Sequence record: PZ445489.1
Strand: one strand, 5' to 3'
Length of the DNA stretch: 64,000 bases
Origin: a phage
In this document: piece by piece, positions 44,882 through 50,647 of the stretch
Layout of the letters: each line of letters opens with the position of its first letter
How positions within the stretch are numbered: the stretch's first letter is position 1
Program-made: the position numbers and the translations under genes
Notes under the pieces: generated by a model
What the model saw: only the letters and a program-made list of their open reading frames with translations
What the model was told of the DNA's origin: nothing
Databases searched by the model: none

Positions 44882-45380
44882 AACAATACTCCTGTATTGG
44901 AAATGAAATAAGTTTTCTTTAGGACTATTCAGAAAGAATAGAACAACTGTTACTGTCAATTTCTCAACAAATTAATCGCAAATACTGAAGGGGGGTGGCA
45001 ACTTCCCCTTTCACGCTACACTGCCGCTTCACTATACCGCACAAATCCTTGAGGATGGCCGCTAAGCCAGATTTGCTCACCTAATGCTTCATGTACTAGC
45101 TCATACTAGATGTAGTATACCTTACGTCATCACTTCTCAGAGTTTTTCACTCTTCCCGTCTCACTTCACAACCACCTCACACTAGGTTGCTTCGAGGCCT
45201 TACCAGGGTTCCTACGGGATGTAGATCGCTAAGTATTCTATTAACTATTTGTTTAAAAACTAACACGTAACAGTTAAAACAACCCTTAATGGGGCAGCCT
45301 AACTGTTCCGTATCGCGGATTGTAAACAAGAAAAATTAGCAAAATCAATTTTTACTAATGTCTCTCAATTCAATATAAAT

Positions 45381-45409
45381 ATTATATCAAGATTTTGGGC
45401 ATCATGCAA
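45381..45409 (-). promoter_or_regulatory. Early promoter driving a ~400-nt ORF-free transcript region
   Basis: TTGCAT-17 nt-TATAAT with conserved downstream box; no start codon or RBS follows for ~480 nt. Confidence 0.55.
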
Positions 45410-45449
45410 GTAAAATTTTCCGGATGGTGCTATCATTGGTCTTGAGTAC

Positions 45450-45478
45450 GGATAAAACCGAGCCAAAATGACTCGGTT
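45450..45478 (-). terminator. Rho-independent terminator at end of Sir2-containing operon
   Basis: ACCGAG-loop-CTCGGT hairpin followed by TTTTA on - strand. Confidence 0.6.
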
Positions 45479-45485
45479 ATGTGGA

Positions 45486-45683
45486 TTAGACACTTAAAAT
45501 ACTTCTAATCTCTTCTATATACTTATCTACTTTTTTAGCATCTACTTTATTTAGTTTTCCTATATCAAAACTAGGATCAGTAAACATTCTAGCTATCTCT
45601 ATCTCTAGAGACTTACTAATTTTCCCTGTAGTATTCCACTTAGAAATCTTACCTTTTATTTTCCAAAATTCCTTATTCATCAT
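45486..45683 (-). CDS. Hypothetical small protein
   Basis: 65 aa, Lys-rich; last ORF of the operon. Confidence 0.4.
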   Translation of the reverse strand: MMNKEFWKIKGKISKWNTTGKISKSLEIEIARMFTDPSFDIGKLNKVDAKKVDKYIEEIRSILSV

Positions 45684-46065
45684 TTAATCCCGGAACATAT
45701 ATCCCAACACGGTTTAATTGTTCTTTAGCTTCTTTGAGAATATCTGGAGTGTACTCCCAAATATCATCTTCCACCTGTAAAAGATGGGGCGAACAACCAT
45801 CATCAGGCACACGACATATGGCAAAACCACGTGGATGGAACAAAGAGAAATTTAGTGCAACAATTAAACCCATAGCAGACAATTCATTCCAATCCAATTC
45901 CCATTCCCCAGCGTAGCCTGATAGGCAAACACCAATACAGGGATCGTCTATTTGCTGCTCCGGAAAAGTGAAGGAGACTTGTCTTACTCCCAACCAACGT
46001 TGTAGCAGCTTCTCCGCACGTTTCACCAAACTAGGGTCAATCTGACGCCAATATACTTGTTCCAT
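45673..46065 (-). CDS. Hypothetical protein, paralog of 46075..46503
   Basis: 130 aa; shares PCIG, W-EL-EMGL-ALN-LF-P and Y-PGL blocks with the adjacent ORF. Confidence 0.5.
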   Translation of the reverse strand: MEQVYWRQIDPSLVKRAEKLLQRWLGVRQVSFTFPEQQIDDPCIGVCLSGYAGEWELDWNELSAMGLIVALNFSLFHPRGFAICRVPDDGCSPHLLQVEDDIWEYTPDILKEAKEQLNRVGIYVPGLNDE

Positions 46066-46074
46066 TCTGCCTCC

Positions 46075-46503
46075 TTAAGCAGTTAAACCTGGGATCATAT
46101 ACCCGAAACGTCGAAGTTTCTGAATCCCCTCATTTACTTCTTCCGGTGAGTAAGACCAACCATAACGTTCATTAACCTGAAAACCAGGAGATTCACTAGT
46201 TTTATAGTTAACAACGAGGCGATGCTTAGCAGGCATAAACAGCTTATAGTTTAACGCAAAAACTAAGCCCATTTCATCTAACTCTTTCCAGCCAACAATT
46301 TCTTCAAGACCATCTTCTACCTGCACAATTAAACCAATACAGGGGGCCTCATCAATATCATCTTTAAAAGCAAAGGAGATTTCATTATTCTCACACCATA
46401 TTTTCAGAGCATTAATAGCCTCATTGTACAGGTTGGCTGGAAGAGTATGCCAAAAATTAACCAATATTGGGTTAGCTTCTTTAGAGAATACATTATTGAA
46501 CAT
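46075..46503 (-). CDS. Hypothetical protein, paralog of 45673..46065
   Basis: 142 aa; same conserved blocks as neighbour, tandem arrangement. Confidence 0.5.
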   Translation of the reverse strand: MFNNVFSKEANPILVNFWHTLPANLYNEAINALKIWCENNEISFAFKDDIDEAPCIGLIVQVEDGLEEIVGWKELDEMGLVFALNYKLFMPAKHRLVVNYKTSESPGFQVNERYGWSYSPEEVNEGIQKLRRFGYMIPGLTA

Positions 46504-46505
46504 AT

Positions 46506-47012
46506 TTACACCTTAAATTGTTGTAAGGATTTACACATTTCAAGATCTGGGCTAAATTCTAGCATATAGCTAACAGCTTTTAAATCTTGAAGATTTATTC
46601 CAGTTCTACCATTGACTATAACTGTTGGATACTGATACATCATAGCACCAGCGTCATCCAGTACACACCAATGTTTGAGCTTATGCTTTTCAACGAAGCG
46701 AAGAACAGAATTACCCCTAGATAGCCCACCACCAGTAAAATCCGTTGTACCAAGAAAACGATCGATAAGACCTAATCCGGTCATAATCTGAACGTTCTCC
46801 ATCTCATTCCTGACAGAGAACCATGAGGATACTCCAACAATCATTATCGGAGAAGGACGAATAAAGTCCTGAAAAGCCTTGAGAAGCGGTTTGAAAACCC
46901 AGTCACTTCCAAAGAAAATCTTTTCATCATCAGGTGCATGATGGTGGGAGATGCTCGAATTGAGCACCCCATCAATGTCTAGAAAAATAATTGGAGTATT
47001 ACTTATTTCCAT
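46506..47012 (-). CDS. HAD-superfamily phosphatase-like protein
   Basis: 168 aa; N-terminal FLDIDGVLN (DxDxV nucleophile motif) and later acidic LDDAG segment. Confidence 0.55.
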   Translation of the reverse strand: MEISNTPIIFLDIDGVLNSSISHHHAPDDEKIFFGSDWVFKPLLKAFQDFIRPSPIMIVGVSSWFSVRNEMENVQIMTGLGLIDRFLGTTDFTGGGLSRGNSVLRFVEKHKLKHWCVLDDAGAMMYQYPTVIVNGRTGINLQDLKAVSYMLEFSPDLEMCKSLQQFKV

Positions 47013-47181
47013 TTTTGTTCCTTTCTAAGAACGTATCATACTCAACCGTATTCACATATATAACACCATAGTCATCGGATTTATAGTCCATTTCCCACAA
47101 CTCACAGCGATAGTACCAACTACCGTCCGCCCATACAAATATATCATCAGGGTGTGTATACACAGATTTAATTATGGACAT
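46999..47181 (-). CDS. Hypothetical small protein
   Basis: 60 aa ORF with overlapping start/stop coupling inside the operon. Confidence 0.35.
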   Translation of the reverse strand: MSIIKSVYTHPDDIFVWADGSWYYRCELWEMDYKSDDYGVIYVNTVEYDTFLERNKNGNK

Positions 47182-47996
47182 ATTTGTTTCCCTGGCATAT
47201 AAGGTCTACCCTCTAGATGAGCTTCTACACGAGCAATAAAATCAGGGTCACTAAAAGCATCTACCGCACCTTTACTCCAGTAAGGAATACCACGATCTTC
47301 CAACTGGTACATCTCACTACGAGTCATACCTTGATAGCCCGGTTCTGCCGCTAGGGCACTATCGTAGTAGTTAACTACCATTAATTTGGCAGCAGTCAAA
47401 TTAAGAACAGGAAATAATTCCCAGTAGAAGTTAATTACTTGGTTAGAACAACCAACCACAATGATCATATCTTGACTGGTAATATCATCAAAAACATTGT
47501 ACATTTCTGTATATGCTGGAGCATGCTCACCAAAGAAGATTACATTAGGTTTAACCCATTTATAATCATCTGGGTCAATAGAGCTATACCCAACATCAAT
47601 AATTCGTTTATTACTACTATTGTAGCTGTCAGCTACAACAACCTCTTTTAAATATCCGTGAATGTGCAGAATGTCACTATGTGGAACGCCAGCACGTTCA
47701 ATAAGGTCATCAACATTGGTAGTCAAGTTTACTACTTGACCTGGATATTGTTTATACCATTCACCAATACGCAAATGTGCAAGATTGGGTTCAACAGTTT
47801 TTAGCTCTTCACGACGCTTGTTGTAAAACATATGGGTTTTATGATAAAAATTACCACGAAAGGCATGAATATTACATACTTCTTCTAGATTATAATCATC
47901 CCACAATGCTTTACCACTAGCAGTATCAGTACGAAAAGCTCGTACACCACTTTCAACACTCAAACCCGCACCGCTAATAATAATTAATCTACGCAT
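47172..47996 (-). CDS. Sir2 (sirtuin)-family NAD-utilising protein lacking zinc-ribbon cysteines
   Basis: 274 aa; GAGLSVESGVRAFR, LTTNVDDLIERAG, catalytic-type HG, VIFFGE and IVVGCS motifs; no CxxC pairs. Confidence 0.65.
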   Translation of the reverse strand: MRRLIIISGAGLSVESGVRAFRTDTASGKALWDDYNLEEVCNIHAFRGNFYHKTHMFYNKRREELKTVEPNLAHLRIGEWYKQYPGQVVNLTTNVDDLIERAGVPHSDILHIHGYLKEVVVADSYNSSNKRIIDVGYSSIDPDDYKWVKPNVIFFGEHAPAYTEMYNVFDDITSQDMIIVVGCSNQVINFYWELFPVLNLTAAKLMVVNYYDSALAAEPGYQGMTRSEMYQLEDRGIPYWSKGAVDAFSDPDFIARVEAHLEGRPYMPGKQICP

Positions 47997-48210
47997 TTTT
48001 CACCTGTTCTCTGAAGTTTTGCCCAATACTGTCTAATAGCTCAGCTAATTCTTTATTGCCTTTCTCCATTAAGGTGTTAGCAATAACTTCTAGCATAGTA
48101 GCGCAGGATTCAACCCCATCCTTATAGCCAGTTTCCCAGTGCTGCATTAATGCGTTTTCCAAAGCGGCGTTTAAACCCTTATCTGGTAGCATCGGCTTCG
48201 AGAATGCCAT
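47989..48210 (-). CDS. Hypothetical small protein
   Basis: 73 aa ORF, translationally coupled. Confidence 0.4.
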   Translation of the reverse strand: MAFSKPMLPDKGLNAALENALMQHWETGYKDGVESCATMLEVIANTLMEKGNKELAELLDSIGQNFREQVKNA

Positions 48211-48382
48211 AAAGTTTCTCCTCTAGTTCCATAACACGATTTTCATAAGAGGCACGCAACTTTTCAATTGCCAGTGCACGCACTGTAACCTCATTAGAAT
48301 TAATAGCTAACTGGGCCAGATCTTCTGTTTCCATACGTCCGTTGTAAATTAAGCGATATTTAAGATGTTTTACGTTTTTCAT
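48179..48382 (-). CDS. Hypothetical small protein
   Basis: 67 aa ORF. Confidence 0.4.
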   Translation of the reverse strand: MKNVKHLKYRLIYNGRMETEDLAQLAINSNEVTVRALAIEKLRASYENRVMELEEKLYGILEADATR

Positions 48383-48391
48383 TCTTGTTCC

Positions 48392-48673
48392 TTAGTTCTG
48401 TACTGTAAATTCATTCTTATCACAGTGAGCATAATAATACCCATACATACGATAAATTTTCACAGCCTTAGTAGACCCCTTCGATTCTTCATAATCAATC
48501 CAGAGCCACTTGTCTTTACCTACATAATGTACCCGAAACTTCTTAGCTTTCTTATCATTCCATGTTGCAACAACACGACGATAATCAAATCCGCCCAACC
48601 AATCTAGAGCCTTACGTTCTTCACTAGGCTCTCCAAGATGGGAGACATCTACTTTAGGAAGCAATTCGCTCAT
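48392..48673 (-). CDS. Hypothetical protein (first gene after strong early promoter)
   Basis: 93 aa; GGAGAAAGCT RBS and promoter directly upstream. Confidence 0.5.
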   Translation of the reverse strand: MSELLPKVDVSHLGEPSEERKALDWLGGFDYRRVVATWNDKKAKKFRVHYVGKDKWLWIDYEESKGSTKAVKIYRMYGYYYAHCDKNEFTVQN

Positions 48674-48691
48674 AGCTTTCTCCTCTCAAAT

Positions 48692-48720
48692 TTATAAATC
48701 TATTATATATAAATTTTTGG
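48692..48720 (-). promoter_or_regulatory. Strong early promoter, near-duplicate of the N25-type promoter
   Basis: TTGCTTTCAGCCAAAAATTTATATATAATAGATTTATAAATTTGAGAGGAG on - strand. Confidence 0.75.
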
Positions 48721-48772
48721 CTGAAAGCAAATAAAATAAAAGCCAGGTCGACTAGCAACCCGGCTGATTAGC

Positions 48773-50647
48773 TTACTTAGCTCGAATATCCTGATGCTTC
48801 ACTCTACCCATCACCTCGTGCTGTTTGCCAGGGTTAAATGGACGAGCACCCGGATTTCCAAGATACCCACAAACTCGACGAGTTACTTCAAGAGTTTCGG
48901 GGTCATGATTACCACAGATAGGACACTTAAACCCATCTTCGGATGCTATTGTTTCACCTAAGAATCCGCATTTACCGCAAGAATCCACTGGAGTATTAAT
49001 ACCGAAGTAATGAACTTTACTAGCAGCATAATTAATAACCCATTCCAGTGCATCTGGGAATCGTTTCATATCCGGTAGTTCTACATAGGAAATGCACCCA
49101 CCAGAAGCAATAGGCGTAAAGTTAGATTCATAATCAAATTTCACGTTAGGAGCAACTTTACGCTCTACATCAAGGTGGTGCGAGTTAGTGTAGTATCCTT
49201 TAGACAGAATATCTTCATGCTCTGGGAAATATTCACGGTCTAAACGGCAAAACCTATCACATAGGGACTCTGACGGTGTAGCATACAGGCTATAACCTAA
49301 CTTAGTCTCTTCCTTCTTCTGATCGACTCTATCTCGCATGTACTGCAATACACGCTGAACAAACTTGATGCAGGTCTCTGACATTGTGTCTACATCTTTG
49401 CCAAACATGAACTGTAGCATTTCATGGCAACCAATATACCCTAGAGATACAGAAGCACGGTTATAGAAATGATCGAATACATATTCATCAGGCTCCAAGC
49501 GTAACCCAAAGGCTCCTGACATATAGAGGATGGGTGCAGCTTTAGCTTGGATGTATTTTAAGCGATCAACTCTCCACTCCAATGCTTTTAACGCTGTATC
49601 CACACGTAGCTCAAGCAAATCAAAGAATAGATCAATATTTCCTTCAGCTTCGATAGCAATTCTAGGCAAGTTTACAGAAACAACACCTAAGTTATTACGG
49701 CCAGCAGTTTCACCATCTTCTGCAGCAGCTAGGAATGAACGGCAGCCCATAGAAACTTTATAGTCTCCAGTAACTTCTACAACCTTGTCATAGCTGATAT
49801 AATCTGGATACATACGTTCAGCAGTACATTTCATAGCTAACTTCTTGATGTCATAATTAACATCTCCTGGTTTCATATTTACGCCATCGCGAAGTACAAA
49901 TACCAGTTTCGGGAAGATAGCTGTACGTTTATTGATACCTAAACCATCCATGCGTACTTTCAGTATTGCTTTCTGTACTAGACGTGCTTCCCAGGAAGTT
50001 CCTAGACCAAAACCAAAGGTAATAAATGGACTCTGACCATTAGAGTTGAACATGGTATTGATTTCATATTCTAAACCCTGACAAGCGTCATAGACTTCTT
50101 TTTCAGTCATCTCCGTAGCCATTACTGATGCTTTGGCTTCATCCTTAGTCCAACGTTTTGCAAACGCATGATTTTTGTCATAGGATTTACGAACATAAGG
50201 GGCTAATACTTCATCAAGGCGATCTACAGAAGTACCACCGTACTGATGGGAGCTAACCTGAGTGATAATCTGAGCAGTAATAGCCGCCGCAGTAGTGATA
50301 GAGTTTGGAGTGCTAATTTCAGCATTACCAACCTTCATACCATTCTTCAACATATCTTCCAAAGCTACCAGACAACAGTTAGTCATGCCTAATGCAGCAT
50401 AATCAGCATCGTGGAAATGAATATCCCCAATCATATGAGCATTTCGAATCTGAATAGGCATTTCTTCTAGAATTAGATACTTACTCAATTCACCTGCAAG
50501 CATATCCCTTTGTGTAGGGAAACGTTCTGAGGGTTTATTGGCATTATTAAACAGCAGCTCTTCATCTGCTGACCCTTCGATAATCTCTTTGCAGTTTCTA
50601 ATTAACGCCTGCATTTCTTTATACTTTAGTTCTTCATTACGATTCAT
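48773..50647 (-). CDS. nrdD: Anaerobic ribonucleoside-triphosphate reductase (class III)
   Basis: 624 aa; C-terminal glycyl-radical motif RVCGYLG and zinc-ribbon cysteines CGKCGF...CPICG. Confidence 0.9.
   Translation of the reverse strand: MNRNEELKYKEMQALIRNCKEIIEGSADEELLFNNANKPSERFPTQRDMLAGELSKYLILEEMPIQIRNAHMIGDIHFHDADYAALGMTNCCLVALEDMLKNGMKVGNAEISTPNSITTAAAITAQIITQVSSHQYGGTSVDRLDEVLAPYVRKSYDKNHAFAKRWTKDEAKASVMATEMTEKEVYDACQGLEYEINTMFNSNGQSPFITFGFGLGTSWEARLVQKAILKVRMDGLGINKRTAIFPKLVFVLRDGVNMKPGDVNYDIKKLAMKCTAERMYPDYISYDKVVEVTGDYKVSMGCRSFLAAAEDGETAGRNNLGVVSVNLPRIAIEAEGNIDLFFDLLELRVDTALKALEWRVDRLKYIQAKAAPILYMSGAFGLRLEPDEYVFDHFYNRASVSLGYIGCHEMLQFMFGKDVDTMSETCIKFVQRVLQYMRDRVDQKKEETKLGYSLYATPSESLCDRFCRLDREYFPEHEDILSKGYYTNSHHLDVERKVAPNVKFDYESNFTPIASGGCISYVELPDMKRFPDALEWVINYAASKVHYFGINTPVDSCGKCGFLGETIASEDGFKCPICGNHDPETLEVTRRVCGYLGNPGARPFNPGKQHEVMGRVKHQDIRAK

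What the first reader, a model, noticed from the sequence alone, without database searches (positions are those of the whole stretch)
45486..48673. Early operon with a zinc-less Sir2-like protein, a HAD-like phosphatase and duplicated small proteins
Nine tightly coupled ORFs on the - strand run from a strong N25-like promoter (48692-48720) to a terminator (45450-45478). The 274-aa ORF has the sirtuin Rossmann motifs (GAGLSVESGVRAFR, TTNVDDLIERAG, HG, FGE) but none of the four zinc-ribbon cysteines. Sir2 domains lacking the zinc ribbon are best known as NAD-cleaving effectors in anti-phage systems. Here one sits in a phage early operon beside a HAD-fold phosphatase (FLDIDGVLN), suggesting a phage module that manipulates NAD or ADP-ribose, or performs ADP-ribosylation.
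Basis: partly seen in the sequence, partly recalled or inferred. Interest (0 to 1): 0.65.

Follow-up and report, generated by a model that had tools for sequence, protein, structure and literature searches.

The report
T5-type phage sirtuin–HAD phosphatase early operon
This is the known early operon of T5-like phages that encodes a zinc-free sirtuin next to a small HAD phosphatase; the pairing has already been described and predicted to repair damaged RNA ends, but nobody has tested it.

Summary
Nine tightly coupled minus-strand ORFs (48673..45486) run from an N25-type sigma-70 promoter to a hairpin terminator. They include a 274-aa sirtuin with no zinc cysteines, a 168-aa HAD phosphatase and two tandem DUF7415 paralogues.

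The window is a Tequintavirus, 95-98% identical to sequenced T5-like phages. The operon is the orthologue of T5.100-T5.107.

The sirtuin is not a defence-type NADase Sir2. It is a canonical PF02146 sirtuin whose closest solved relatives are E. coli CobB and SIRT5. The catalytic His and the class III Y-x-x-R pocket are intact, and it matches no defence Sir2 model.

The zinc-less state of phage Sir2/CobB proteins was noted in 2016. The sirtuin plus "Swiss-army-knife" HAD neighbourhood in T5-like phage SP15 was published in 2022, with a predicted KptA/Tpt1-like role in RNA repair.

I re-derived that context. Homologues 50-65% identical sit beside T4-type RNA ligase, cREC, kinase and Nudix genes in other phage lineages. 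T5-like phages, however, carry no RNA ligase, and the sirtuin is acidic.

Verdict: real, already described computationally, biochemically untested. Moderate-to-low interest.

The parts
48702..48730 (-). Early sigma-70 promoter of N25 type: -35 TTGCTT, 17-nt spacer, -10 TATAAT, with an AT-rich upstream tract
   Evidence: Sequence read. The alignment to T5 P-N25 and to the annotated promoter before T5.100 is.
48741..48765 (-). Intrinsic terminator of the upstream nrdD gene, which marks the 5' boundary of the operon
   Evidence: 10-bp stem with 6 GC pairs, followed by a T run. T5 annotates a terminator at the same place.
48392..48673 (-). ORF 1, 93 aa, basic (pI 8.9), unknown function (phrog_7953)
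   Evidence: No Pfam or PADLOC hit. T5 and SP15 have a different 126-aa gene at this position.
48179..48382 (-). ORF 2, 67 aa, unknown function (phrog_5236)
47989..48210 (-). ORF 3, 73 aa, unknown function (phrog_5827)
47172..47996 (-). Zinc-less class-III-like sirtuin, 274 aa, orthologue of T5.102
   Evidence: PF02146 at 2e-25. phrog_2162 at 4e-121. CobB 1s5p at 1.2e-17 by sequence. AF2 model pLDDT 88.8. Foldseek to CobB 8.7e-18, TM 0.84. Invariant G9-A10-G11, Y58/R61, N94, D96, H113 and F155/E157 (G156 varies), and no zinc Cys.
46999..47181 (-). ORF 5, 60 aa, acidic, unknown function (phrog_5116); orthologue of T5.104
46506..47012 (-). HAD-superfamily phosphatase of the RNA-repair 'Swiss Army Knife' type, 168 aa, orthologue of T5.105
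   Evidence: PF18143 HAD_SAK_2 at 4e-20, 73 bits against a cutoff of 27.5. Invariant D12-x-D14, S62/S63 and D119-D120. Often mislabelled 'Sir2' through phrog_18062.
46075..46503 (-). DUF7415 protein a, 142 aa, orthologue of T5.106
   Evidence: PF24187 at 1.4e-33 with two repeats. 93% identical to the SP15 protein.
45673..46065 (-). DUF7415 protein b, 130 aa, orthologue of T5.107 and tandem paralogue of the 142-aa protein
45486..45683 (-). ORF 9, 65 aa, basic, unknown function (phrog_29527); absent from T5 and SP15
   Evidence: The first 275 nt of the query are missing in several relatives.
45456..45478 (-). Intrinsic terminator hairpin AACCGAGUCA-UUU-UGGCUCGGUU followed by UUUAU
   Evidence: dG -13.5 kcal/mol, z -4.1, 0 of 200 shuffles as stable. 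T5 annotates a terminator at the same position.

Best explanation
The region is the T5.100-T5.107 early operon of a T5-like phage. Host RNA polymerase transcribes it from an N25-type promoter soon after the second-step DNA transfer.

Its two enzymes are a zinc-less sirtuin of the CobB/SIRT5 (class III) lineage and a 'Swiss-army-knife'-type HAD phosphatase. They most likely form an NAD+-dependent RNA-end healing pair.

Proposed mechanism:
- A host nuclease or tRNA-directed toxin leaves 2',3'-cyclic, 2'- or 3'-phosphate ends on tRNA or mRNA.
- The HAD enzyme hydrolyses terminal phosphomonoesters through its DxD aspartyl-phosphate mechanism.
- The sirtuin uses NAD+ to remove a 2'-phosphate by ADP-ribosyl transfer. 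The phosphate oxygen attacks C1'' of NAD+ and nicotinamide leaves. [quoted passage not shown]
- This is the chemistry of Tpt1/KptA carried out on a sirtuin scaffold. The conserved Tyr58/Arg61 pair, which binds a carboxylate in SIRT5 and CobB, would bind the anionic phosphate.
- Sealing would be left to a host ligase, because T5-like phages have none.

Shown: gene structure, family membership, fold, intact catalytic motifs, absence of zinc ligands, and conserved synteny.

Inferred: the substrate (RNA phosphate ends), the division of labour between the two enzymes, and the counter-defence role. The DUF7415 pair and the five small ORFs have no assignable role.
For: Identity of the operon.
- 95-98% nucleotide identity to T5-like phages.
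- Synteny with T5 and with SP15.

Sirtuin.
- PF02146 at 90 bits.
- CobB is the best sequence match and the best fold match, on a confident model.
- NAD-binding and catalytic residues and the Y-x-x-R pair are invariant in 32 homologues. The Y/R pair is present in 109 of 146 representatives.

HAD.
- PF18143, defined on RNA-repair polyvalent proteins.
- Catalytic Asp residues are invariant.

Genomic context of homologues 50-65% identical.
- RNA_lig_T4_1 - cREC_REC - AAA_33 - x - SIR2 in a Mydovirus.
- Metallophos - RNA_lig_T4_1 - AAA_33 ... SIR2 in an Erwinia phage.
- RNA_lig_T4_1 - cREC_REC - SIR2 in an rV5-like contig.
- SIR2 - Nudt16-like Nudix - cREC_REC in jumbo phage slurp01.
- HAD_SAK_2 - x - SIR2 in the divergent T5-like Erwinia phage KEY, with inverted order and no DUF7415.
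- In total, 6 of 9 sampled lineages place the sirtuin beside RNA-end-processing genes.

Literature. Iyer et al. 2022 (PMC9503650, section 3.7.3) reached the same prediction and name SP15 as the prototype. Some submitters already label the HAD 'RNA repair protein'.
Against: - No experiment on any member was found.
- T5-like genomes lack the RNA ligase, kinase and cREC partners seen elsewhere: tblastn against the window and against T5 1-75 kb found none, and none appears in the T5 annotation.
- The sirtuin clade is acidic, pI 4.6-5.8, which is unusual for an RNA-binding enzyme.
- Three of nine lineages show no informative neighbours: muut, ECO340P2 and Vibrio F86.
- HAD_SAK_2 also occurs without any sirtuin in T4-like Proteus and Aeromonas phages.
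- The protein retains everything a protein deacylase needs.
Confidence: 0.4

Rival explanations
1. The sirtuin is a genuine NAD+-dependent protein lysine deacylase (a CobB/SIRT5-like deacetylase or desuccinylase). It resets the acylation state of host or phage proteins early in infection, for example metabolic enzymes, RNA polymerase or replication proteins. The HAD phosphatase is either functionally unrelated or disposes of a by-product.
For: - The closest solved relatives by sequence and by fold are all protein deacylases.
- The best NCBIfam hits are 'NAD-dependent protein deacylase' models.
- The catalytic His113, N94, D96, the FGE loop and the class III succinyl-binding Y58/R61 pair are invariant.
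- The acidic pI fits a protein-directed enzyme.
- This is the function proposed for the Vibrio phage homologue (PMC5107563).
Against: - Scores are far below every NCBIfam equivalog cutoff (100 bits against 243).
- The V-x-P half of the peptide-binding 'beta-staple' motif reads V-I-N/D-F in this clade. The motif is recalled from memory; the residues are.
- The NAD motif TQN is changed to TTN together with zinc loss.
- It does not explain why the gene is repeatedly embedded between RNA ligase, cREC, kinase and Nudix genes, or paired with an RNA-repair-type HAD in two T5-like arrangements.
Confidence: 0.28
2. One reading: the zinc-less sirtuin is an NADase or a protein/DNA ADP-ribosyltransferase. 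The phage uses it to manipulate NAD+ or ADP-ribose pools or immune signals (a counter-defence or host take-over module). The HAD trims phosphorylated ADP-ribose products.
For: - Sirtuins can ADP-ribosylate, and defence Sir2 domains are NADases (general knowledge; PMC9503650).
- The operon is early and sits among small orphan genes, as anti-defence loci often do.
- In phage ECO340P2 an Acb2/Tad1-hairpin sponge gene lies 4 kb upstream of the sirtuin.
- NAD-salvage genes (NAPRTase, PRPP synthetase) and a NADAR-domain gene lie near the Mydovirus homologue.
Against: - No similarity to any defence Sir2 model or to SIR2_2.
- No ThsA, DSR or HerA-Sir2 structure appears among the top 50 fold matches.
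- No macro domain partner, as in SirTM systems.
- T5 depends on an NAD+-dependent DNA ligase, ligA/ligB, so bulk NAD+ destruction would be self-harming.
Confidence: 0.15
3. The pair acts on small molecules in nucleotide or cofactor metabolism. The sirtuin would be a phosphoribosyl- or ADP-ribosyl-transferase, like the CobT-substituting activity ascribed to CobB. The HAD would be a nucleotidase. Both would be part of the surrounding nucleotide-supply gene block.
For: - The operon lies directly after nrdD and close to phoH, nrdA/B, thy and frd in T5-like genomes.
- One T5 GenBank record annotates the gene as 'cobb: putative transferase'.
- Single-domain DUF7415 genes sit beside nrdD/nrdG in T4-like Klebsiella phages.
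Against: - PF18143 is an RNA-repair-associated HAD family, not a nucleotidase family.
- In other lineages the neighbours are RNA-end enzymes, not nucleotide-synthesis enzymes.
- Proximity to nrd genes may simply reflect the layout of the early region.
Confidence: 0.08

Closest known systems
T5 genes T5.102 (Sir2-like) and T5.105, and the identical neighbourhood in Escherichia phage SP15 described by Iyer et al. 2022 (PMC9503650)
   Same: Same gene order: nrdD - small ORFs - SIR2 - 60 aa - HAD_SAK_2 - DUF7415 - DUF7415 - origin-binding protein. The proteins are 93-99% identical. The promoter and terminator are in the same positions.
   Different: The small ORFs at both ends differ. Here the first ORF is 93 aa, against 126 aa in T5 and SP15. 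T5.103 is absent. There is an extra 65-aa ORF before the terminator. There is no HNH gene after it.
E. coli CobB and human SIRT5 (class III sirtuins, protein deacylases)
   Same: Same fold: Foldseek 8.7e-18, target-normalised TM 0.84. The GAGxS, xxNxD, HG and FGE motifs and the Y-x-x-R acyl-carboxylate pocket are shared.
   Different: About 25% identity. All four zinc ligands are lost. TQN is replaced by TTN and GTS by GCS. The V-x-P motif is not kept. Scores fall far below the equivalog cutoffs. The substrate is unknown.
Tpt1/KptA RNA 2'-phosphotransferase
   Same: The proposed chemistry is the same: NAD+-dependent removal of an RNA 2'-phosphate through an ADP-ribosylated intermediate. The genomic company is also similar in other phages (RNA ligase, kinase, cyclic-phosphate processing enzymes; PMC9503650; PMC11417386 abstract).
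   Different: The protein is unrelated (ART-like fold against a Rossmann sirtuin). There is no sequence or fold match. This is a 'works like' hypothesis only and is untested.
Defence-associated Sir2 NADases (ThsA, DSR1/2, Sir2-HerA, SPARSA)
   Same: Sir2 superfamily, and lack of a zinc ribbon.
   Different: A different Pfam family (SIR2_2). No HMM match. No fused or adjacent sensor domain. Not among the top 50 fold matches. Encoded by the phage, not the host.
T4 Pnkp phosphatase domain and other HAD-type nucleic-acid end phosphatases
   Same: DxD(T/G) acylphosphatase motif, and a presumed action on terminal phosphates of nucleic acids (Pfam definition of PF18143). That the T4 Pnkp phosphatase domain is HAD-type is from my own knowledge.
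   Different: It is a stand-alone 168-aa protein with no kinase domain. It has no detectable sequence match to any solved structure.

Membership tests
Sirtuin / Sir2 family (Pfam PF02146) | Profile HMM match above the gathering threshold | tested here: met
   90.2 bits against a cutoff of 24, E 2e-25, covering profile positions 1-178 of 180.
Sirtuin / Sir2 family (Pfam PF02146) | Rossmann NAD+-binding motifs (GAGxS; xQN[IV]D) and the catalytic His of the HG motif | tested here: met
   G9-A10-G11, S13, N94, D96 and H113-G114 are invariant in 32 homologues. Q is replaced by T93.
Sirtuin / Sir2 family (Pfam PF02146) | Four-cysteine zinc ribbon in the small domain | tested here: not met
   There is no Cys between residues 115 and 153 in this protein or in any of 32 homologues. 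The CobB ligands align to Ala or to gaps. The three-stranded sheet is still predicted with pLDDT 88-95.
Sirtuin / Sir2 family (Pfam PF02146) | Sirtuin fold | tested here: met
   AF2 model pLDDT 88.8. 284 PDB matches at E of 0.001 or better. The top 50 are all sirtuins, and CobB gives TM 0.84.
Sirtuin / Sir2 family (Pfam PF02146) | NAD+-dependent deacylase activity | not testable with these tools
   This needs an enzyme assay. No published assay was found.
Class III sirtuins (CobB/SIRT5 equivalogs) | Y-x-x-R pocket residues for anionic acyl groups | tested here: met
   Y58 and R61 align with the CobB 'FYNARRR' segment and are invariant. They are present in 109 of 146 representatives. Their role in CobB and SIRT5 is from my own knowledge; the engineered CobB Y92A entry is consistent with it.
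Class III sirtuins (CobB/SIRT5 equivalogs) | Score above the NCBIfam equivalog cutoff | tested here: not met
   The best hit, NF001753, scores 100.5 bits against a cutoff of 243. prot_deacyl_CobB scores 89.7 against 320.
Defence-type Sir2 NADases (SIR2_2; ThsA, DSR, Sir2-HerA, pAgo-Sir2) | Match to SIR2_2 or to PADLOC defence Sir2 profiles | tested here: not met
   Only PF02146 was found at E up to 1. There was no PADLOC Sir2 hit at E up to 0.1.
Defence-type Sir2 NADases (SIR2_2; ThsA, DSR, Sir2-HerA, pAgo-Sir2) | Fused or adjacent sensor or partner (SLOG, HerA, Argonaute, long DSR C-terminal domain) | tested here: not met
   The protein is single-domain and 274 aa long. Its neighbours are small ORFs, the HAD and DUF7415.
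SirTM (macrodomain-linked ADP-ribosylating sirtuins) | Operonic macro domain partner | tested here: not met
   No macro domain in any of the nine ORFs or in the SP15 neighbourhood.
Phage 'RNA-repair' sirtuin clade of Iyer et al. 2022 | Orthology to the sirtuin of the named prototype (T5-like phage SP15), with an adjacent SAK-type HAD and no macro gene | tested here: met
   The SP15 locus L012 has the same SIR2 - 60 aa - HAD_SAK_2 - DUF7415 x2 order. SP15 is a Tequintavirus.
Phage 'RNA-repair' sirtuin clade of Iyer et al. 2022 | Clade members linked to RNA ligase, cREC, kinase or Nudix genes in other phages | tested here: met
   (homologues 50-65% identical). Not seen in muut, ECO340P2 or Vibrio F86.
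Phage 'RNA-repair' sirtuin clade of Iyer et al. 2022 | RNA 2'-phosphate removal activity | not testable with these tools
   This is only a prediction in the literature. No assay was found.
HAD superfamily, HAD_SAK_2 (PF18143) | Profile match above threshold, plus the catalytic motifs I (DxD), II (S/T) and IV (DD) | tested here: met
   73 bits against a cutoff of 27.5. D12, D14, S62/S63 and D119-D120 are invariant across T5-like and T4-like homologues.
Complete phage tRNA repair pathway (T4 Pnkp + Rnl1 type) | RNA ligase and 5'-kinase encoded by the same phage | tested here: not met
   There is no homologue of Rnl1, AAA_33 kinase, cREC or the linked Metallophos in the window or in T5 1-75 kb, and none is annotated in T5. 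The T5 late region (75-121 kb) was not examined.

The most novel reading that the evidence does not exclude
The zinc-less 'TTN' sirtuin is not a protein deacylase. It would be the first sirtuin shown to act on nucleic-acid phosphate ends, either as an NAD+-dependent RNA 2'-phosphotransferase or as a phosphate-ADP-ribosylating enzyme. Together with the HAD phosphatase it would give T5-like phages a ligase-independent tRNA-end healing system. That system would counter tRNA-targeting host immunity and would complement the phage's own tRNA set.
Probability: 0.3. Interest if true: 0.75.

Novelty: already known. Interest (0 to 1): 0.3.

Why it matters
If the published prediction is right, this clade would extend sirtuin chemistry from acyl-lysine to RNA phosphate ends. 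It would also add a widespread RNA-repair counter-defence: about 1000 of 50,697 phage records carry a homologue, including model phage T5.

As a scan result it adds little. The gene has been annotated since the T5 genome paper. The zinc-less state and the sirtuin-HAD linkage are already in the literature.

What this analysis adds:
- an explicit exclusion of the defence-NADase analogy;
- the co-variation of zinc loss with TQN to TTN;
- the finding that HAD plus Sir2, and not DUF7415, is the conserved core within T5-like phages;
- the caveats (no ligase in T5, an acidic protein);
- a widespread annotation error, in which the HAD is labelled 'Sir2'.

Tried and rejected
- Defence-type Sir2. I looked for SIR2_2 or PADLOC matches and found none.
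- RNA-repair partners. I looked for Rnl1, cREC, kinase, Metallophos and Nudix homologues in the window and in T5 1-75 kb, and found none.
- HAD linkage in T4-like phages. I asked whether the HAD is always linked to a sirtuin or to DUF7415 there. It is not.
- DUF7415 function.
  - Sequence search against the PDB found nothing.
  - BFVD returned only the protein's own family.
  - The context of a single-domain homologue was uninformative.
  - The afdb50 library was unavailable.
- Domain fusions. I examined long representatives near the sirtuin clade and found only SIR2 plus unannotated extensions.
- Structured RNAs. Rfam gave no match in 44900-48900, and there are no tRNA genes anywhere in the window.
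- Experimental literature. Seven completed full-text searches (one more attempt failed on a term that was too short) found no experimental work on T5.102, phage sirtuins, DUF7415 or HAD_SAK_2.
- P-N25 itself. The idea that this promoter is P-N25 was rejected. In T5 that promoter precedes gene D2, and the promoter here is a near-identical paralogue.

Full report
**What is in the sequence**

The stretch 48673..45486 carries nine minus-strand ORFs of 93, 67, 73, 274, 60, 168, 142, 130 and 65 aa. Their ends overlap by 8-32 nt or are separated by 2-9 nt. Each matches a phage protein family in PHROGs at E 4e-12 to 4e-121.

The transcription signals are as follows.
- Upstream, nrdD ends in a strong terminator hairpin at 48765..48741.
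- The promoter follows: TTGCTT (48730-48725), a 17-nt spacer, TATAAT (48707-48702), then the Shine-Dalgarno sequence GAGAGGAG and the ATG at 48673.
- Aligned with T5, this promoter is almost base-for-base the same as P-N25 and as the promoter annotated before T5.100. P-N25 itself lies elsewhere in T5, in front of gene D2.
- After the last stop codon, a 10-bp hairpin (45478..45456) folds at -13.5 kcal/mol, better than all 200 shuffles. It is followed by a short U tract.
- A second promoter, TTGCAT-17-TATAAT at 45409..45381, then starts the next unit.

**Where it comes from**

The 3.4-kb block is 95-98% identical to many T5-like phages, including Salmonella phage oldekolle and E. coli phages AZ21 and AZ23. 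There are 447 matching records. In phage T5 the orthologues are T5.100-T5.107, with annotated promoter and terminator in the same places. The block lies between nrdD and the replication-origin-binding protein, in the early region.

**The sirtuin**

The 274-aa protein matches Pfam SIR2 (PF02146) at 90 bits and nothing else at E up to 1.

Its best solved relative by sequence is E. coli CobB (1s5p, E 1.2e-17), followed by Sir2Af1 and SIRT5. An AlphaFold model built on 32 homologues is confident (pLDDT 88.8, pTM 0.87). Its 50 best PDB neighbours are all classical sirtuins, with CobB first (E 8.7e-18, target-normalised TM 0.84).

It matches no defence Sir2 profile in PADLOC.

The protein has three cysteines (41, 183, 273), and none lies in the segment between HG and FGE. 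The CobB zinc ligands align with Ala or with gaps. No member of the 32-sequence alignment has a cysteine there. The model nevertheless keeps a three-stranded sheet at that position, with pLDDT 88-95.

Conserved residues:
- G9-A10-G11, S13, F21-R22, N94, D96, H113-G114, F155 and E157 are invariant (G156 varies in a few homologues).
- So are Y58 and R61. These align with the 'FYNARRR' segment of CobB. From my own knowledge, that segment carries the Tyr/Arg pair which binds the carboxylate of succinyl- or malonyl-lysine in class III sirtuins.

In a search of 1.84 billion representatives, the nearest relatives split cleanly:
- 80 have at least 3 Cys and the canonical TQN motif;
- 36 have at most 2 Cys and TTN;
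- only 17 are mixed between these two states (9 with Cys and T, 8 without Cys and Q).

Zinc loss, TQN to TTN, and GTS to G(C/S/A)S therefore mark one subfamily, and this protein belongs to it. Scores against NCBIfam CobB-type equivalogs are far below cutoff (100 bits against 243). It is a sirtuin, but not a CobB equivalog.

**The HAD protein**

The 168-aa protein matches PF18143, 'HAD domain in Swiss Army Knife RNA repair proteins', at 73 bits against a cutoff of 27.5. Motif I (D12-x-D14), motif II (S62/S63) and motif IV (D119-D120) are invariant between T5-like and T4-like homologues. It has no sequence match in the PDB.

In RefSeq and many recent submissions it is wrongly named 'Sir2 (NAD-dependent deacetylase)'. 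The cause is that phrog_18062, which is just the C-terminal 92 residues of this HAD protein, carries that label. A few submitters call it 'RNA repair protein'.

**The duplicated small proteins**

The 142-aa and 130-aa proteins are paralogues, 31% identical at E 1e-20. Each consists of two DUF7415 repeats.

Single-repeat versions of about 75 aa occur in T4-like phages.

Both proteins are acidic, pI 4.5-4.7. Their role remains unknown.

**What was already known**

- The T5 gene was annotated as Sir2-like or 'cobb' in the original genome records.
- Skliros et al. 2016 (PMC5107563) reported that the Sir2/CobB proteins of KVP40-like Vibrio phages lack the zinc ligand. They listed T5 among the phages that carry the gene.
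- Iyer et al. 2022 (PMC9503650, section 3.7.3) described a distinct clade of phage sirtuins in three conserved neighbourhoods. [quoted passage not shown] They proposed that these sirtuins remove RNA 2'-phosphates in the manner of KptA.
- SP15 is a Tequintavirus. Its locus has exactly the gene order found here, and its 142-aa DUF7415 protein is 93% identical to the window's.
- I found no experimental study of any member.

**Independent check of the context argument**

Homologues occur in 1007 of 50,697 phage records. I examined nine lineages.

| Lineage | Neighbourhood of the sirtuin |
|---|---|
| Tequintavirus (window, T5, SP15) | SIR2 - 60 aa - HAD_SAK_2 - DUF7415 x2 |
| T5-like Erwinia phage KEY | HAD_SAK_2 - 118 aa - SIR2; inverted order, no DUF7415 |
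| Mydovirus | Metallophos ... RNA_lig_T4_1 - cREC_REC - AAA_33 - x - SIR2 |
| 147-kb Erwinia phage | Metallophos - RNA_lig_T4_1 - AAA_33 ... SIR2 |
| rV5-like contig | RNA_lig_T4_1 - cREC_REC - SIR2 |
| Jumbo phage slurp01 | SIR2 - Nudt16-like Nudix - cREC_REC |
| muut | nothing informative |
| ECO340P2 | nothing informative |
| Vibrio phage F86 | nothing informative |

In phage KEY the 118-aa protein resembles T5.100.

Two conclusions follow.
- The link to RNA-end-processing genes is real: it holds in six of the nine lineages.
- Within T5-like phages the conserved core is sirtuin plus HAD, not DUF7415.

**Caveats that the literature does not stress**

- T5-like phages have no detectable RNA ligase, polynucleotide kinase or cREC. 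Any repair would stop at end-healing or would depend on host ligases.
- HAD_SAK_2 also occurs in T4-like Proteus and Aeromonas phages with no sirtuin nearby.
- The sirtuin clade is uniformly acidic, pI 4.6-5.8, which is not what one expects of an RNA-binding enzyme.
- The protein keeps every residue a class III protein deacylase needs.

For these reasons I give the RNA-end-healing mechanism about 0.4 and a genuine protein deacylase about 0.28.

**Verdict**

The finding is a correct reading of a real, conserved early operon. However, both its striking feature (a zinc-less sirtuin) and its context (an adjacent HAD phosphatase) are already described. The suggested kinship with defence NADases is not borne out.

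The open question is biochemical: does a sirtuin act on RNA phosphate ends? It can be tested directly in T5. It is not a new discovery of this scan.

Noticed in passing
window 46506-47012 (- strand); L001 3935-4441; L002 27589-28095: The HAD phosphatase is annotated 'Sir2 (NAD-dependent deacetylase)' in RefSeq T5 and in many T5-like records. The cause is that phrog_18062, which covers only the C-terminal 92 aa of this HAD protein, carries the Sir2 label. This is a propagated annotation error.
   Followed up: yes
window 47172-47996 (- strand), residues 92-94 and 115-153: Among 146 representative near relatives, loss of the zinc cysteines goes together with TQN to TTN in the NAD-ribose motif and with GTS to G(C/S/A)S. 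Counts: Zn with Q 80, no Zn with T 36, mixed between these two states 17. This defines a recognisable subfamily signature.
   Followed up: partly
window 45673-46503 (- strand): The DUF7415 proteins are labelled 'tail tube protein' or 'exonuclease' in some records. The confident model has no solved structural relative. Both proteins are strongly acidic, pI 4.5-4.7.
   Followed up: partly
phage records H130-H133 (T4-like Klebsiella phages); window 48773-50647: Single-repeat DUF7415 homologues lie next to nrdD/nrdG in T4-like Klebsiella phages. The T5-type operon also sits directly downstream of nrdD. This may be a coincidence of early-region layout or a functional link.
   Followed up: no
window 45381-45409 (- strand): A second N25/N26-style promoter (TTGCAT, 17-nt spacer, TATAAT) lies immediately after the terminator. 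About 420 nt with only short ORFs (42, 50 and 38 aa) follow before the 955-aa origin-binding-protein ORF. SP15 has an HNH endonuclease gene in this gap.
   Followed up: no
window 45486-45683 and 48392-48673 (- strand): Both ends of the operon are variable. The 65-aa last ORF is absent from T5 and SP15. The 93-aa first ORF replaces the 126-aa T5.100-type gene. T5.103 is missing between the sirtuin and the HAD.
   Followed up: partly
L013 940-1215 (Escherichia phage ECO340P2): A gene with the Acb2/Tad1 hairpin domain (a sponge for cyclic-nucleotide immune signals) lies about 4 kb upstream of the sirtuin homologue, on the same strand.
   Followed up: no
L003 592-3133 and 14214-14720 (Mydovirus locus): NAPRTase and PRPP-synthetase genes (an NAD+ salvage or reconstitution pair) and a NADAR domain gene lie within 8 kb of the sirtuin-RNA-ligase cluster.
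   Followed up: no
window 1-64000: There are no tRNA genes in the whole 64-kb window, although T5-like phages carry a large tRNA cluster. The cluster must lie outside the window.
   Followed up: no
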